From: a virus
Lineage: Duplodnaviria > Caudoviricetes
Direction: 5' to 3' (one strand)
Virus record (IMG/VR): IMGVR_UViG_3300028603_000001
Span: 116,801 to 180,800 of that record
Length of the DNA stretch: 64,000 nucleotides
Shown piece by piece: positions 26,112 through 49,581 of this stretch (positions are counted from its first letter, which is position 1; each line of letters opens with the position of its first letter). Made by a program: the position numbers and the translations under genes. The notes below the pieces were generated by a model. It did not search any database. It was given only the letters and a program-made list of their open reading frames with translations, and had not been told where the DNA came from.

Positions 26112-27155
26112 TTATACAGCTATTGTTCTTTCAGCGTTATATTTAGTAATACCTAATTCTTGATCATTCCATTTAGCTTCATCGCCATATACTGCTAAGT
26201 ATTCTTTTCTGATATTTGCTGCAGCACCTTCTGGGTTACCATTCAACGCTTGATCTACATATTTAGCACAGCATTTAGACCAAAATGTGATATTATCATC
26301 CATATATTTCGGATCAACTTTAAAACCAACGCTCCTTGCTTCCCAGGCATCGCTTGGCATATTTCCAGTTATAAATCCATGTAAACCATGTCTAATAGCG
26401 TATGAAGAAGCGTGGCACCAGATTAAAAATAACTTTTTACCTTTTAGATATTTTGCTTCTCCATCACCGATAACATATCCACCGCCCTGCACATTGATCA
26501 ATCCACCAGGTGTTCCATGACCTAAACAAATAATCTTATCATGTGATTCTAGTAATTGATGAAGTTCTTCCTTATCGATGTTACCATCTCTCAAAACATC
26601 CCAATTTTTTCCTTCATATATTTGTGATAACATATTAGTGGTATTATCTAAGCAATGTATTACTAAAGTATCAGATTTATTTAATTTATCTAAGAAACCT
26701 GTTGCTTTGACTGGTTCAAAGAAATGTTTGTTATTAATATATTCTCTATCTATGCTAAATAAATCATCATATTCTTCTTCATCATCAAAATATTCTTCTT
26801 CATCATCAAAATATTCTTCATCATCAGGTTCAGAGAAAAATAGATCTATATTAGAATCATTTTTGTTTTTCTGCTTCGGTTGTTTTTTTGCTGTTTCATC
26901 TTGAACAATCTGGTCAAAAAGAGCTTTTGTATAGCTTTTTTCATAAATAGCAGATGGCATAACTAAACAATTCTCTGAAGAGAACCAGTGGTCAATGAGA
27001 TGATCTAAATTATCAAATACTTTATACTCAAAATTGCTCTTATTATGTTTTTCTTGAACAAGTTTAAATTTGCCAATAGTTTCTACAATAGTATCATCAT
27101 CTTTTTCATCATCCCAAAAAGGATCTATCAATTTATTTTTGTAATTATCTCTCAT
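26112..27155 (-). CDS. Acidic-linker protein with a possible clan-CD (caspase-like) peptidase domain
   Basis: IICLGHG ... LFLIWCHA spacing resembles a His-Gly/Cys dyad. Confidence 0.45.
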   Translation of the reverse strand: MRDNYKNKLIDPFWDDEKDDDTIVETIGKFKLVQEKHNKSNFEYKVFDNLDHLIDHWFSSENCLVMPSAIYEKSYTKALFDQIVQDETAKKQPKQKNKNDSNIDLFFSEPDDEEYFDDEEEYFDDEEEYDDLFSIDREYINNKHFFEPVKATGFLDKLNKSDTLVIHCLDNTTNMLSQIYEGKNWDVLRDGNIDKEELHQLLESHDKIICLGHGTPGGLINVQGGGYVIGDGEAKYLKGKKLFLIWCHASSYAIRHGLHGFITGNMPSDAWEARSVGFKVDPKYMDDNITFWSKCCAKYVDQALNGNPEGAAANIRKEYLAVYGDEAKWNDQELGITKYNAERTIAV

Positions 27156-45697: not shown

Positions 45698-46071
45698 AAT
45701 ATATTATCTCCTTTTTATATATTTTTTGTAAGTTCAATTATCAATTAATTTAGCAGTTGTAAAACATTTTCATATCACTATTTTCTTTAAATTAATTCAT
45801 CTCTATATAGATAAGGGCTTTTATCAAGGTAAGCCCTTATAACCTTTAACACCTTTATATTATATAATAAACTAGACTTAAAAATCAACAAAGCTCAAAA
45901 GTAAAATTTCACCGCTCTTAACTTCTATTTTAAAATCTATCTTCCTGTGTATAAAACAAAAAAACTAACAGGAGAGATTAAATTTGAATAGTAGAATCGT
46001 AATTCTAGCTAAATATAATCTTCATCATCTGTTAGTTTTATATTCTTATTATTTTTAATTTTTAATAAACC

Positions 46072-46134
46072 AAGGCGCAACTATGGATAATAACTTCTGT
46101 GGCGTCATCGTTGTTTATTAGCTGTAAGCGCCTT
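46072..46134 (-). ncRNA. ACAGCU-stem RNA element 3 (Y-RNA-like)
   Basis: AAGGCGC-TTACAGCT...GCGCCTTG. Confidence 0.6.
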
Positions 46135-46265
46135 TTGTTTATTTGTGTTTATTATTTTTCATTTGTTGTATCAAATTCACCTTTTCATCATCAATATTAT
46201 AGCAATATGGTTCAATATTATTTTAATCAGCTATAAATAAGATAATTTATTTACTTATTAGCGTA

Positions 46266-47846
46266 TTAACCTAAAACTACGCTATCGTATCTATCTGCAT
46301 AAACAACTTCTAGCATAAATTCATAAGGAGTATGTTTCTTTCCATCTATAAGTGTTTTAAATATACTTGTTGCTTGACCACTAACCATTCTTACATTAGG
46401 AACATGTTTAGTTGTATGATAAGTATCTTGTCTAGCATCAACATTCCAAAATACGATTTCAGGTAAATCATAACCATATCGATTATATCTATCTTTCATC
46501 TTATCGTAGAAGGTCATATTGGTAGCGTCCCTGCGTTGGTAGATATAGGTTATTCCTACCATACATCCATTATCAACAACACATTGGTCAAATTCCATAT
46601 CAGTTATAATTATTAACTGTTTAGGCATATCTTCTTGTGTTAAGTTATTATCAACACCTGTTTTTAATATTAAATCAAAAGCAGCTTCTAGATTTGTATT
46701 ATCCACAATTTCTGGAACAACATTTAATTTATCAGCAAGCGTCATGTTATCCTTTAAACTAATCCAACTAGGTTTGCTAGCAAATGTCATAAACTTGTTA
46801 TGGAATGGTCCTGTATTTCTTTCTGCAAAATATATTCCTAAACCAACTGATGTAGCCATTGGACGACCCATCATTGAACCAGAAGTATCGGCAATAACAA
46901 TTGTGTTACATTCAACTCCTTGAATCCAATCTTTTAATCCATCCCACATAGCTTCTAACTCAGGTTTAAGGGTTCTAATATGCAGCACAGATCTTGATAT
47001 ATTCTGTGATAAATATTTTTCAATTATCTCATATGGATATAAATTTTTTGTATTAATTTTTGCTTCTTTTTCAACAACAGTTCCATCATCTTTAACAACA
47101 GTTATTTTCTTACCGTTTTTAAGAGCTTCTAAATATTCTTTAAATCTTTCTTCTTGATGTTTATAGAACGCTTTATTATATTTCTTCATAGCGCCACCAG
47201 GAACTGTATTGAAGTCTACTTTTTCCCATTCATTTTCAGACAGTCTCTTCTCTAATACATCAATATATTTTCTTAAACTAGCTAAAGTTTTTCTATATTC
47301 TTTTTCAGACATTTTAAAAAACTTAGCTGTTAATTTTCCTAATTTAACGCTTTCTTTGCTTGAAGTGTTAACTGATTTTAACCACTTTCCAAGTAAGCTA
47401 ACAGATTTACCTTCTTGCATATTAATTACGTCTTTATCAAATTGTTCTTTCATAAAAGCAAAAGCTTCTTTTTCCGCTGGTGTTCCAGCTAATGTATATA
47501 AATCATCAAAGCGTCCATATTTAGCGATATTTGGAATATTAGCAACAATATCTTTTGTTCTATTATTAGCTAACCAATTTAAACCAACTCTAAATACTCT
47601 ACGTTCACCCAAACCTTCTCCAATATCTCTCGCATAGAATAATATTTTCATAGCTGTTAGGGGTTGCTCGATATATGCTTTCATAAATTTAGTCTCAATA
47701 TCTGCATCTGGTCTTCTTCTTAAAGCCCCGATTGTAGCAAATAAATCTAAATTGGCGTCAAATGTTGTATTTAACGCATCAAGACCGTTTTCTGTTAATT
47801 TCCAAGCTACTTCTTTTTCAATAGCTTCTACAAATTTGTTTTCCAT
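46266..47846 (-). CDS. DUF2828 family protein (TROVE/Ro60-like helical domain plus vWA)
   Basis: TENG, FYARDI..GLGERRVF, YGRFDDL, SLLGKWL, LYPYEI; MIDAS IADTSGSM, ITDMEFD, IVFWNV. Confidence 0.85.
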   Translation of the reverse strand: MENKFVEAIEKEVAWKLTENGLDALNTTFDANLDLFATIGALRRRPDADIETKFMKAYIEQPLTAMKILFYARDIGEGLGERRVFRVGLNWLANNRTKDIVANIPNIAKYGRFDDLYTLAGTPAEKEAFAFMKEQFDKDVINMQEGKSVSLLGKWLKSVNTSSKESVKLGKLTAKFFKMSEKEYRKTLASLRKYIDVLEKRLSENEWEKVDFNTVPGGAMKKYNKAFYKHQEERFKEYLEALKNGKKITVVKDDGTVVEKEAKINTKNLYPYEIIEKYLSQNISRSVLHIRTLKPELEAMWDGLKDWIQGVECNTIVIADTSGSMMGRPMATSVGLGIYFAERNTGPFHNKFMTFASKPSWISLKDNMTLADKLNVVPEIVDNTNLEAAFDLILKTGVDNNLTQEDMPKQLIIITDMEFDQCVVDNGCMVGITYIYQRRDATNMTFYDKMKDRYNRYGYDLPEIVFWNVDARQDTYHTTKHVPNVRMVSGQATSIFKTLIDGKKHTPYEFMLEVVYADRYDSVVLG

Positions 47847-47926
47847 TTTTATATTTTCCTTTCATGACATATTTTTCTAAGTGTGTGTGTTTTCATAATT
47901 AAAAAGAGATAAAAAAAATAAATATC

Positions 47927-48041
47927 AAGACACTTTATACTACCTTACCAGTTAGGTGATAATTGCAATCGCACAATTAATTGGATTCGAACCAACATAA
48001 GTCTCATTTTCAGTGAGAGGATATTTAGCTGTATGTGTCTT
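47927..48041 (-). ncRNA. Y-RNA-like element 1 enclosing a circularly permuted tRNA (anticodon GAA)
   Basis: AAGACAC-ATACAGCT...[TCTCA CTGAAAA TGAGA][GTTGG TTCGAAT CCAAT][TAATTGT/GCAATTA][ACCT AACTGGTA AGGT]...GTGTCTTG. Confidence 0.8.
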
Positions 48042-48076
48042 TATGTTATTTATCTCTTTAATTATTTAAATATTGC

Positions 48077-48137
48077 AAGGCGCGGTATGTTAGGATTTAT
48101 CAGATCGGTTACATATAACATTAGCTGTATGCGCCTT
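48077..48137 (-). ncRNA. ACAGCU-stem RNA element 2 (Y-RNA-like)
   Basis: AAGGCGC-ATACAGCT-AATGTTA...TAACAT-ACC-GCGCCTTG. Confidence 0.65.
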
Positions 48138-48236
48138 TTTCTCTATTATTTGATTCGTTAATCAATAAAAGCTGTTAATGTCATTTTGAATTACGTTTTA
48201 TTATACAATTTATTTTTTAGATTTTTATTGCTACAT

Positions 48237-48500
48237 TTAAAATTCTATTACAGCAATTTTATCAGTGCTATTATCCCTGCCATCATATCGTGTTACATAT
48301 ATATAAACGTTTACTCTTTGTATAGTAATTCCATCATGTAAAGGACATCGTTTAATCACATGTCTATTTGTTTCTACGTAATTTTTAGCTTCTTCTTCTG
48401 AATTAAATACTCCGTCTAACAATGTTATATCATCTAAAAATGCTTCATCTCCATTACTTAATTCAACTGTTAAATAAAAATGAACTTTTGATAATCTCAT
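48237..48500 (-). CDS. Hypothetical protein
   Basis: Promoter plus AGGAG SD. Confidence 0.6.
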   Translation of the reverse strand: MRLSKVHFYLTVELSNGDEAFLDDITLLDGVFNSEEEAKNYVETNRHVIKRCPLHDGITIQRVNVYIYVTRYDGRDNSTDKIAVIEF

Positions 48501-48576
48501 AATATTTATTTCTCCTATTGATTTTTTTACTTAAATATTATATAATAAGATGGGGATAAAATCAACTATTTTTCGC

Positions 48577-49581
48577 TTAAATAATACAAGCAAGCAAATC
48601 AGGTGTTTGTTTTATCTCTTCTAATGTTTTCTCAATAAACTTATATAATTTTGCATTAGATAGATTCTTCAAACTATTTAATATTTTATTTCCAATATTA
48701 TCATTTATTTTATAGTTATTACAGAAGTTAAATATAAAGTCTTCACCAATACTGTTTAGATGTTTCACTAATTTCCTTGAATCAAATTTACTTGTTATTG
48801 TGATCTCTTTTTGTTTAACTTCTTCACCTGTTTCTTTAGATATAGTTTTAATTGTTTTAATTTCTTTTTCTTTTTTATAATTATGATAATTAGCGATACT
48901 ATCCACAATTAAAGCTTCTAGGTTTTCACCTCTATCTAATAACATTTGAACTAAACTATAAGCTCCACCTAAAAATGTCTTTTCATCCTCTGAATAAGCT
49001 CCAATATAACTAATAGCATAATCTCCATCTTCTTCTAAGATAGTATCTAGACTATACGTCTGTGTATCAGCTTTTCTTTTATCTTTATTGTGGAATTGGA
49101 ACACTCTTCCTCTCATACTCCCACAACATCTATTTATGATTTTATCAGGAGCGTCTTGGTCGACCTTGTAATAATATTTATTAGGAATTTTATTCCCATT
49201 TTCATCTAATTTATATTCTTTAAATATTCCTTCTTTTACAACAGCTTCAAACTCATATCTCCAAACTCTATAATAAAAAGCAACATATAAACTATCTGAT
49301 AACCAATCTACATAATCAGTTATTGGAAGATTTAATGTATAACTATTTTTATGCCACTCAAATATTTTATACCAATATCGCAACATTAAAGCTGAATAAT
49401 AAGCGCTTCTTAAAATTTCTTGCTCTGCCTCTTTATCTTTATCACCGCTAATTTTATACGCTAACGCTTTCTCATCTGCATCACAGTATCCATTAGCTAG
49501 CTCCGTTTTAGACATTAGCTGGTAATCTCCCAAGATACCCGCATCAGTTTGAAAAGCTACTTGCAGTTCATTTAGTGTCAT
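48577..49581 (-). CDS. Conserved phage protein, possibly a divergent sigma factor
   Basis: ALMLRYWYKI and KRKA....SLD resemble sigma region 2/3; weak. Confidence 0.35.
   Translation of the reverse strand: MTLNELQVAFQTDAGILGDYQLMSKTELANGYCDADEKALAYKISGDKDKEAEQEILRSAYYSALMLRYWYKIFEWHKNSYTLNLPITDYVDWLSDSLYVAFYYRVWRYEFEAVVKEGIFKEYKLDENGNKIPNKYYYKVDQDAPDKIINRCCGSMRGRVFQFHNKDKRKADTQTYSLDTILEEDGDYAISYIGAYSEDEKTFLGGAYSLVQMLLDRGENLEALIVDSIANYHNYKKEKEIKTIKTISKETGEEVKQKEITITSKFDSRKLVKHLNSIGEDFIFNFCNNYKINDNIGNKILNSLKNLSNAKLYKFIEKTLEEIKQTPDLLACII

What the first reader, a model, noticed from the sequence alone, without database searches (positions are those of the whole stretch)
47847..48209. Outer copy of the motif closes directly on the DUF2828 ribosome-binding site: possible autoregulatory leader with nested RNAs
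A promoter-like ATTGTATAAT (48209-48200) is followed by ATGACAT-TAACAGCT (48184-48170). Its partner ATGTCAT-G (47870-47863) lies immediately before the SD AAAGGA of the gene. This ~320-nt loop contains elements 1 and 2. Inference: the protein binds its own leader and represses translation, and the RNAs titrate it.
Basis: partly seen in the sequence, partly recalled or inferred. Interest (0 to 1): 0.7.

Follow-up and report, generated by a model that had tools for sequence, protein, structure and literature searches.

The report
Nested RNA handle on Ro60-like gene's leader
The message for this phage's Ro60-shaped RNA-binding protein starts with a copy of the short "handle" carried by the protein's presumed partner RNAs, but here the handle's two halves lie 300 bases apart, enclose two whole partner RNAs and close directly on the ribosome-binding site, so the protein probably senses and limits its own synthesis, though no binding has been shown.

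Summary
An extended -10 box (TGTATAAT, 48207-48200, minus strand) is followed by AUGACAU-UA-ACAGC (48184-48171). Its perfect 7-bp partner AUGUCAU-G (47870-47863) is followed directly by the SD AAAGGA and lies 17 nt before the ATG.

This is a member of a large, strand-specific RNA "handle" family: a 7-bp helix, 2-3 nt, ACAGC(A/U)A, a variable loop, the 3' strand, then G. The family flanks DUF2828/DUF7788 genes in phages and bacteria. All 274 covariance-model hits lie on the gene strand, and all seven helix pairs covary. The protein model matches Ro60 (TROVE ring plus vWA).

In about half of the non-redundant loci the last handle abuts the gene's SD, and this was never seen before another gene. 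In the window's own clade the handle is split and encloses one or two inner modules. The cargo varies while both halves stay, with compensatory changes (U-A to C-G; C-G to U-A).

Autoregulation and titration remain inference. The helix is marginal thermodynamically, which fits protein-dependent closure.

This scan had already noted leader handles on other DNA. The nested form appeared in none of the earlier notes I retrieved.

The parts
48200..48207 (-). Extended -10 promoter box TGTATAAT; the predicted transcript start lies about 9 nt before the outer helix
   Evidence: A TGTATA(A/T/G)T box is kept at the same relative place in 9 aligned leaders. The consensus scan did not list it because it has no -35 match.
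48169..48184 (-). Outer handle, 5' half: helix strand AUGACAU (48184-48178), spacer UA, ACAGCUU
   Evidence: It is the first ACAGC after the promoter in all 10 leaders of the clade, 32-43 nt into each aligned leader stretch, which starts just upstream of the -10 box.
48150..48165 (-). Small local hairpin UUGAUU-AACG-AAUCAA between the outer 5' half and element 1
   Evidence: Seen only in the window and L161. Role unknown.
48076..48137 (-). Element 1: handle AAGGCGC / GCGCCUU + G with AU-ACAGCUA and a 45-nt loop
   Evidence: R1 hit 48140-48072, 37.6 bits, E 7e-6.
47926..48041 (-). Element 2: handle AAGACAC / GUGUCUU + G enclosing a circularly permuted tRNA-like body (anticodon-like arm, T arm, capped acceptor-like hairpin, D arm). 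It is flanked by an extension helix AAAGAGAU (48059-48052) / AUCUCUUU (47910-47903).
   Evidence: R1 gives 31.9 bits. Rfam tRNA gives 28.7 bits against a gathering score of 29, at 48032-47972. 95% of cells are paired against at most 47% in slid controls, and 3 pairs change on both sides, but only 4 sequences are compared.
47863..47870 (-). Outer handle, 3' half: AUGUCAU plus the conserved G
   Evidence: Perfect 7-bp complement of 48184-48178. The same place is kept in relatives.
47857..47862 (-). Shine-Dalgarno AAAGGA, starting at the base after the handle's G; it is not paired in the helix
46266..47846 (-). Gene for the 526-aa DUF2828/DUF7788 protein (PHROG 850 'RNA-binding protein'), with a Ro60-like fold
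   Evidence: Pfam and PHROG matches. AF2 model with pLDDT 85. The top 12 PDB matches are all Ro60/TROVE entries (1yvr, 2i91, 1yvp, phage phiLo 9kop/9l5y, Rsr 2nvo), probability 1.0 and TM 0.5-0.57 for most.
46067..46137 (-). Element 3: a further handle RNA (AAGGCGC-UU-ACAGCUA ... GCGCCUU-G) downstream of the gene, behind its own extended -10 box TGCTATAAT (46204-46196)
   Evidence: R1 gives 30.5 bits. Sequence.

Best explanation
The 5' UTR of the DUF2828 (Ro60-like) mRNA is a composite, Y-RNA-like structure.

Shown:
- A 7-bp helix next to ACAGC, here called the 'handle', is the signature shared by the small RNAs that flank this gene family.
- In this window the transcript's 5' end and the 8 nt just before the Shine-Dalgarno form one such handle.
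- That handle encloses two complete handle RNAs, one of them tRNA-like.

Inferred:
- The Ro60-like protein binds handles.
- The outer handle has the weakest helix: 2 G-C pairs, a U-A closing pair where the family has C-G, and ACAGCUU in place of ACAGCAA. It closes a loop of about 300 nt, so it forms stably only when protein clamps it.
- The clamp places a ~60-kDa protein at -17 to -24, directly against the unpaired SD, and blocks 30S binding.
- The better handles (elements 1, 2 and 3, and a fifth copy 75 kb away) are filled first. Synthesis of the protein is therefore tuned to the pool of partner RNA, as in ribosomal-protein and ThrRS feedback.
For: 1. The motif is real RNA.
- In 50 aligned hairpins all 7 helix pairs covary, with 82 double-sided cells against 19.5 in shuffles.
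- All 274 R1 hits lie on the gene strand.
- A strict pattern search gives 247 hits on the gene strand against 7 on the other.

2. The motif is tied to the protein.
- In the 3.1-Mb and 1.6-Mb bacterial genomes G001 and G002, the only R1 hit genome-wide lies just upstream of the DUF2828 gene.
- Among 121 related genomes, none of the 116 without the gene has a hit.
- The motif also flanks the gene in Staphylococcus, Bacillus, Listeria, Enterococcus, Mycobacterium and Salmonella phages.

3. The protein has a Ro60 fold.

4. Placement on the SD is specific.
- 58 of 122 loci have a leader copy, and the conserved G lies 13-17 nt from the ATG in 38 of them.
- Hairpins within 17 nt of an ATG: 30 of 162 before DUF2828 against 0 of 77 before other genes (Fisher 4e-6).
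- In G002 the only detectable copy in the genome is this leader copy.

5. The nested helix is conserved.
- Window/L161: AUGACAU/AUGUCAU.
- L184, L185, L165, L166, L170: AUGACAU/GUGUCAU.
- L172: ACGACAU/GUGUCGU (position 2 changes U-A to C-G).
- L168: ACGAUAU/AUAUUAU (position 5 changes C-G to U-A).
- The cargo is one module, two modules, or two in swapped order.
- The position-2 pair is private to the outer helix, so the two halves are not simply orphan pieces of ordinary handles.

6. The helix is in the MFE structure in 4 of 10 leaders.
Against: - No binding, toeprint, reporter or transcript-end data exist.
- Handles are packed tightly in arrays anyway: 29 of 88 inter-hairpin gaps are 2-11 nt. 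Part of the SD adjacency could therefore be compaction.
- Leader copies do not differ from other copies in loop length (median 44.5 against 43.5 nt).
- Some phages have no leader copy. Staphylococcus 6ec and Mycobacterium Faith1 have only downstream copies, and in Listeria LP-124 the last copy ends 72 nt before the ATG. The feedback is therefore not universal.
- The predicted probability of the outer helix is below 0.05 in 4 of 10 relatives.
- The covariation of the outer helix rests on only about 5 distinct sequence types.
- No autoregulation is reported for Ro60/Rsr in the papers I read (PMC4201824, PMC12135203).
Confidence: 0.5

Rival explanations
1. The outer handle is real and protein-bound, but it is not a translational operator. 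The leader is a composite precursor of Y-like RNAs, the outer helix defines or protects that precursor, and it sits by the SD only because these loci are compact.
For: - Handles lie in tight arrays upstream and downstream of the gene.
- Leader copies look like other copies.
- Stand-alone, promoter-driven copies exist: element 3, and genome position 89675-89749.
- Several phages lack a leader copy.
Against: - Abutment on an SD is seen only for the DUF2828 gene (30/162 against 0/77).
- The G-to-ATG spacing is much tighter than the gaps between hairpins.
- In G002 the leader copy is the only R1 hit genome-wide, although that search is sensitivity-limited. In L019 and L043 a cargo-less handle sits between promoter and SD, and it is the only hit in the +/-2.5 kb searched in L043.
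Confidence: 0.27
2. The 5'-terminal helix acts on mRNA stability or processing. A structured, possibly protein-capped 5' end would protect the message from 5'-dependent RNases, or mark a cleavage site before the SD. The net effect on expression would be positive or neutral.
For: - The helix starts about 9 nt from the predicted transcript start.
- The relatives' genomes are Bacillota, where 5'-proximal structures are known to stabilise mRNAs (general knowledge).
- Many loci also have a handle right after the stop codon: 15 of 32 within 46 nt.
Against: - A 7-bp A/U-rich helix closing 100-300 nt is weak on its own.
- Stabilisation does not explain why the 3' half must abut the SD, or why the conserved G is followed by AAAGGA.
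Confidence: 0.15
3. The two halves do not pair as RNA. They are a chance match, orphan halves of decayed handles, or a DNA-level inverted repeat bound by a transcription factor.
For: Handles share a consensus helix, so unrelated halves can match each other. Such cross-matches occur in L001, L002 and L005. The outer helix is short and A/U-rich.
Against: - Chance expectation is 0.2%.
- Both halves are kept across 71-100% protein identity while the interior is reshuffled.
- There are compensatory changes at positions private to the outer helix.
- U-G pairs in five relatives would be C-A mismatches on the other strand.
- The 5' half keeps the spacer and ACAGC, and the 3' half keeps the G, as in more than 270 RNA hairpins.
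Confidence: 0.04

Closest known systems
Ro60/Rsr with Y RNAs: bacterial and mycobacteriophage YrlA/YrlB (Chen et al. 2014, PMC4201824) and Thermus phage phiLo Ro60 with Yrl1/Yrl2 (PMC12135203)
   Same: - A ring-plus-vWA protein fold.
- Small RNA genes next to the protein gene on the same strand.
- A helix formed by the RNA's two ends as the presumed protein site, with variable cargo.
- At least one RNA with a tRNA-like body.
- RtcB ligase nearby in some loci.
   Different: - The protein belongs to Pfam DUF2828/DUF7788, not TROVE, by sequence.
- The conserved RNA signature is ACAGC(A/U)A beside a 7-bp helix, not GNCGAA/CGAA in a bulged stem.
- No YrlA or Y_RNA Rfam hit even at E<=10.
- No leader copy on the SD, and no nesting, is described for Ro60/Rsr in the papers read.
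Autogenous translational operators that mimic the protein's main RNA ligand: E. coli thrS leader (tRNA-like operator), ribosomal-protein operators, T4 RegA/gp32, MS2 coat protein hairpin (established knowledge)
   Same: A copy of the ligand's recognition element sits at the ribosome-binding site of the protein's own mRNA. That copy is weaker than the primary ligands, and free ligand RNAs would compete with it.
   Different: Nothing has been tested here. The operator's two strands are about 300 nt apart and enclose two of the competing ligands on the same transcript. I know of no example of this among those systems.
Dictyostelid Class I RNAs (Rfam RF01414; Kjellin et al. 2021, PMC7919456)
   Same: A short terminal helix joins the 5' and 3' ends. 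An unpaired, conserved 11-nt motif follows the 5' strand, and the rest is variable. The paper's conserved T, C, C, A, A at motif positions 3, 6, 9, 10, 11 fit xCUUACAGCAA.
   Different: RF01414 does not hit any handle in this genome: best 14.9 bits elsewhere, against a cut-off of 41.5. Those RNAs are eukaryotic, and their known binder is an RRM protein. The exact motif letters are in a figure I could not read.
Listeria phage CKA15 (P100-like) abundant non-coding transcripts near CKA15_055 (PMC12282133)
   Same: CKA15_055 is described as Rsr-like by HHpred, sits 620 bp downstream of the tRNA region, and is found in virions. The related phage LP-124 has a DUF2828 gene in the same position, with three handles 70-340 nt upstream.
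   Different: The authors only speculated about Y RNAs and defined no motif. Assuming the same layout as phage cka17, the most abundant region they report (26,236-26,727) would lie about 1-1.5 kb upstream of the gene, not on the handles (my estimate). The last handle there does not abut the SD.

Membership tests
Ro60/TROVE-Y RNA ribonucleoprotein | Protein with a HEAT-repeat ring plus a vWA domain (Ro60 fold) | tested here: met
   AF2 model with pLDDT 85. The Foldseek top 12 are all Ro60/TROVE entries over the full length, probability 1.0.
Ro60/TROVE-Y RNA ribonucleoprotein | Sequence membership in Pfam TROVE | tested here: not met
   Pfam gives only DUF2828 (1e-31) and DUF7788 (1e-38). phmmer against PDB finds no Ro60.
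Ro60/TROVE-Y RNA ribonucleoprotein | Partner RNA with the GNCGAA/CGAA Ro-binding motif in a bulged terminal stem; match to Rfam YrlA/Y_RNA | tested here: not met
   The invariant motif is ACAGC. No YrlA or Y_RNA hit at E<=10 in 47000-49000 or at gathering score in six related loci.
Ro60/TROVE-Y RNA ribonucleoprotein | RNA genes adjacent to the protein gene and on the same strand | tested here: met
   274 of 274 R1 hits are on the gene strand and concentrated within 400 nt of the gene. They are the single genome-wide hits in G001 and G002.
Ro60/TROVE-Y RNA ribonucleoprotein | At least one partner RNA with a tRNA-like domain | tested here: met
   Rfam tRNA 28.7 bits at 48032-47972. The permuted arms are supported on 4 sequences.
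Ro60/TROVE-Y RNA ribonucleoprotein | Direct binding of the protein to the RNA | not testable with these tools
   No protein-RNA docking tool or binding data are available.
Autogenous translational operator (ligand mimic at the RBS) | The element in the leader resembles the protein's main RNA ligand | tested here: met
   The outer copy has every handle feature: a 7-bp helix, a 2-nt spacer, ACAGC and a 3' G. That the handles are the protein's ligand is itself inferred.
Autogenous translational operator (ligand mimic at the RBS) | The element abuts or overlaps the SD or start codon, and is conserved there | tested here: met
   The G at 47863 is followed directly by AAAGGA. Spacing is 13-17 nt to the ATG in 38 of 58 leader copies. 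Abutment is specific to this gene.
Autogenous translational operator (ligand mimic at the RBS) | Protein-dependent repression of translation | not testable with these tools
   Needs reporter, toeprint or in vitro translation assays.
Dictyostelid Class I RNA (RF01414) | Match to the family covariance model at its gathering score | tested here: not met
   Best hit in the 180.8-kb genome is 14.9 bits against 41.5, and not at any handle.

The most novel reading that the evidence does not exclude
The leader is a protein-closed riboregulator that also serves as a precursor. The Ro60-like protein clamps two sequences 300 nt apart, so one binding event both shuts the ribosome-binding site and packages or releases two Y-like RNAs. 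This would set the protein-to-RNA ratio of an undescribed, widespread viral and bacterial Ro-type particle whose RNA signature (helix plus ACAGCAA) is shared with the unexplained Class I RNAs of social amoebae.
Probability: 0.25. Interest if true: 0.8.

Novelty: new variant of a known kind. Interest (0 to 1): 0.6.

Why it matters
Ro60 and Y RNAs are a long-studied particle whose regulation and RNA recognition outside animals are poorly understood. I found no paper on the function of DUF2828, and no Rfam family matches its RNA handle.

A handle copy on the gene's own ribosome-binding site gives a simple, testable read-out of protein-handle binding through a reporter fusion. This works without knowing what the particle does.

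The nested form is a natural experiment. The same seven pairs either flank a 30-nt loop or enclose 100-300 nt of partner RNA, and natural compensatory mutants already mark the pairs to test.

If the feedback holds, it would be the first autoregulatory circuit reported for a Ro-type protein. It would also be an unusual operator built from the two ends of a long structured leader.

Tried and rejected
- Nucleotide search of cultured phages with the locus found nothing. A single-protein scan of viral contigs found nothing. Profile scans then worked.
- The covariance model cannot reach the outer copy because its loop is too long. I therefore judged it from anchored tables, shuffles and folding.
- MAFFT on whole leaders misaligned the window's 5' half, so that alignment was not used for pair counts.
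- A loose hairpin search gave many false pairs and was replaced by a strict one.
- 'Leader-only' loci called by the strict search mostly turned out to have imperfect neighbouring copies, so that argument was dropped except for G002, L019 and L043.
- No intrinsic terminator was found in 46000-49000. An attenuator reading was therefore not pursued.
- The conserved 334-aa upstream protein has no family or fold lead.
- Rfam finds nothing in the promoter-driven 560-nt gap of Listeria phage LP-124.
- RF01414 does not detect the handles.

Full report
**What is at the site**

On the minus strand, 390 nt separate an 87-aa ORF (48500-48237) from a 526-aa gene (47846-46266). The stretch reads as follows:
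- an extended -10 box, TGTATAAT (48207-48200);
- AUGACAU-UA-ACAGCUU (48184-48169);
- a small hairpin;
- element 1 (48137-48076);
- element 2 (48041-47926);
- AUGUCAU-G (47870-47863);
- directly after that, AAAGGA, then 10 nt and the ATG.

RNAfold places the 7-bp outer helix in the MFE and in the centroid structure.

**The protein**

Pfam assigns DUF2828 plus DUF7788, and PHROG 850 calls it an 'RNA-binding protein'. An AlphaFold model built from 30 homologues (pLDDT 85) has Ro60/TROVE entries as its 12 best PDB matches over the full length. These are Xenopus and human Ro60, Thermus phage phiLo Ro60 and Deinococcus Rsr, at probability 1.0 and TM 0.5-0.57 for most of them. By sequence it is not a TROVE-family member. 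Homologues number in the thousands. They occur in 699 cultured phage records, some annotated 'Ro-like RNA binding protein'.

**The RNA motif**

The regions upstream of distant homologues (38-62% identity) carry one to five copies of a hairpin. It consists of a 7-bp helix (often AAGAYRC/GYRUCUU), two or three nucleotides, an invariant ACAGC usually followed by AA or UA, a variable loop, the 3' strand, and a G.

In an alignment of 50 copies all seven pairs covary. There are 82 double-sided cells against 19.5 in shuffles, and 97.7% of cells are paired against at most 51% when the partner is slid. These copies were picked by complementarity, which inflates the percentage paired but not the range of pair types.

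A covariance model (R1) gave these results:
- It finds elements 1, 2 and a third copy downstream of the gene (46137-46067) in the window.
- It finds 116 and 158 hits in the related loci, all on the gene strand.
- A strict pattern search on 122 non-redundant loci gives 247 hits on the gene strand and 7 on the other.
- Rfam has no family for the motif.
- The motif also flanks the gene in Staphylococcus 6ec, Bacillus Izhevsk, Listeria LP-124, Enterococcus PEf771, Mycobacterium Faith1 and Salmonella FelixO1.
- In two whole bacterial genomes the only hit lies just upstream of the DUF2828 gene.
- Among 121 related genomes, 5 carry the gene and none of the 116 without it has a hit.
- The four gene-bearing genomes that the model missed carry handles in the leader by eye. 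Three have variant forms (ACUGCAA or UCAGCAA, one type with a 4-nt spacer) and one is canonical.

**The outer copy fits the family**

It has the helix length, the spacer, ACAGC and the 3' G. It deviates at the closing pair, which is U-A where 45 of 50 copies have C-G. It also deviates in the two bases after ACAGC, and it has only two G-C pairs. R1 cannot span its 300-nt loop. Shuffling the leader gives such a partner within 45 nt of the ATG in 0.2% of trials.

**Long-range pairing in relatives**

I fetched the closest relatives by exact protein look-up. I tabulated two anchors that do not depend on complementarity: the first ACAGC after the promoter, and the eight bases before the SD. Ten leaders form a nested clade:

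| Leaders | Outer helix (5' / 3') | Note |
|---|---|---|
| Window, L161 | AUGACAU / AUGUCAU | |
| L184, L185, L165, L166, L170 | AUGACAU / GUGUCAU | |
| L172 | ACGACAU / GUGUCGU | position 2: U-A to C-G |
| L168 | ACGAUAU / AUAUUAU | position 5: C-G to U-A; one G-U, one mismatch |
| L186 | GAGACAU / GUGUCGU | weaker; lies 13 nt further from the SD |

The enclosed cargo differs between leaders:
- element 1 plus the tRNA-like element 2 (window, L161);
- the same two in reverse order (L184, L185);
- element 1 only (L165, L166, L170, L172, L186);
- element 1 plus an unrelated structured insert (L168).

At 68% protein identity (L174, L187) the modules stand in tandem and the last one closes on the SD. 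Both halves thus persist while the interior is reshuffled. The covarying position 2 is private to the outer helix, which argues against orphan halves of ordinary handles.

Folding gives a mixed picture. The helix is in the MFE structure in 4 of 10 leaders. Its mean pair probability is 0.4-0.98 in 6 of them and below 0.05 in the other 4.

**Is the placement on the SD meaningful?**

- Of 122 non-redundant loci, 58 have a handle ending within 45 nt of the ATG. In 38 of these the conserved G is 13-17 nt from the ATG, so the SD follows at once.
- Gaps between successive handles are broader, from 2 to 160 nt.
- Handles within 17 nt of an SD-preceded ATG: 30 of 162 before DUF2828 and 0 of 77 before any other gene (Fisher 4e-6).
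- In the Erysipelotrichaceae genome G002 the gene sits in a 385-kb chromosomal contig with a SecG-like (preprotein translocase subunit) ORF downstream. The only R1 hit in that genome is the leader copy, ending 13 nt before the ATG.

Against this:
- Leader copies do not differ from others in loop size.
- Several phages lack a leader copy.
- Arrays are compact anyway.

**Mechanism**

The helix never includes the SD, so the RNA alone should not block initiation. The best-supported reading is therefore a protein-dependent clamp next to the SD. The outer handle would be the weakest site, filled last, and the inner and stand-alone handles would act as competitors. This is the logic of ThrRS and ribosomal-protein feedback.

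- Shown: the motif, its covariation, its link to the gene, the conserved split helix, and the SD-specific placement.
- Inferred: binding, repression and titration.

**Known systems**

YrlA-type Y RNAs carry GNCGAA, and were sought only beside TROVE-annotated proteins (PMC4201824). Phage phiLo Ro60 binds two upstream Yrl RNAs that have CGAA (PMC12135203). Neither paper describes a leader operator.

A Listeria phage study found an Rsr-like protein (CKA15_055) in virions and abundant nearby non-coding transcripts, and speculated about Y RNAs (PMC12282133). The related phage LP-124 has three handles upstream of its DUF2828 gene.

Earlier notes of this scan pointed to dictyostelid Class I RNAs. Their published description fits the handle's architecture (PMC7919456), but RF01414 does not detect the handles.

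**Earlier notes of this scan**

Earlier notes describe the handle system, and cargo-less leader copies on the RBS, on other DNA. My results agree with them. The split handle that encloses partner RNAs is the addition here.

Noticed in passing
outside the window: G000:C1:89675-89749 (+), locus L177:1501-1575: A fifth handle RNA (AAGAUAC-CU-ACAGCAA ... GUAUCUU-G) sits 75 kb from the gene. It has its own TTGATT-N17-TGTACAAT promoter and is followed at once by a tRNA-Met gene.
   Followed up: partly
window 46196-46204 (-): An extended -10 box, TGCTATAAT, lies about 60 nt upstream of element 3. The downstream handle is probably its own transcription unit.
   Followed up: no
L002:349-418, L081:2340-2403, L088:2116-2190, L090:2304-2373, L123:2302-2372, L139:2308-2374, L187 (upstream of 1201): Many handle loops carry an anticodon-arm look-alike with a 7-nt loop CUUUUAA (Lys UUU) or CUGUUAA (Asn GUU). 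These are anticodons that known anticodon nucleases target, so the loops may act as decoys or repair substrates.
   Followed up: no
L008:2090-2300, L011:2200-2420, L001:2200-2330, L209:2280-2400: These are tRNA-shaped RNAs with an intact acceptor and T arm. The helix-plus-ACAGCAA module replaces the anticodon arm, which is a different topology from the window's permuted element 2.
   Followed up: no
L188:5854-7065 (Listeria phage LP-124); L205 and L218 just downstream of the DUF2828 gene: An RtcB-type RNA ligase gene lies downstream of DUF2828: about 1.3 kb away in LP-124, and immediately after it in two Erysipelotrichaceae genomes. This recalls the Salmonella rsr-yrlBA-rtcBA operon.
   Followed up: partly
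L188:1420-2000: This roughly 560-nt unannotated stretch follows a consensus TTGACA-17-TATAGT promoter, about 1-1.5 kb upstream of the DUF2828 gene. It probably matches the most abundant early transcript reported for phage CKA15. It has no Rfam match and no handle.
   Followed up: partly
L006:379-689: A bacterial class A RNase P RNA (238 bits) lies among tRNA genes, 1.8 kb upstream of a DUF2828 gene with five handles, on a 12-kb sediment contig.
   Followed up: no
L283-L285, L205, L214 leaders: Erysipelotrichaceae genomes use variant handles (ACUGCAA or UCAGCAA, 4-nt spacer) that model R1 misses. Counts made with R1 are therefore lower bounds.
   Followed up: partly
window 48577-49581 (-): A 334-aa ORF is kept in synteny just upstream of the leader in the close relatives (334-338 aa in L161, L165, L166, L171, L172). 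It has no Pfam, PHROG or fold lead.
   Followed up: partly
L168:1345-1470: In one relative the outer handle also encloses a GC-rich structured insert. It is closed by UAGACAU/AUGUCUA+G but lacks the ACAGC spacer arrangement. Its nature is unknown.
   Followed up: no
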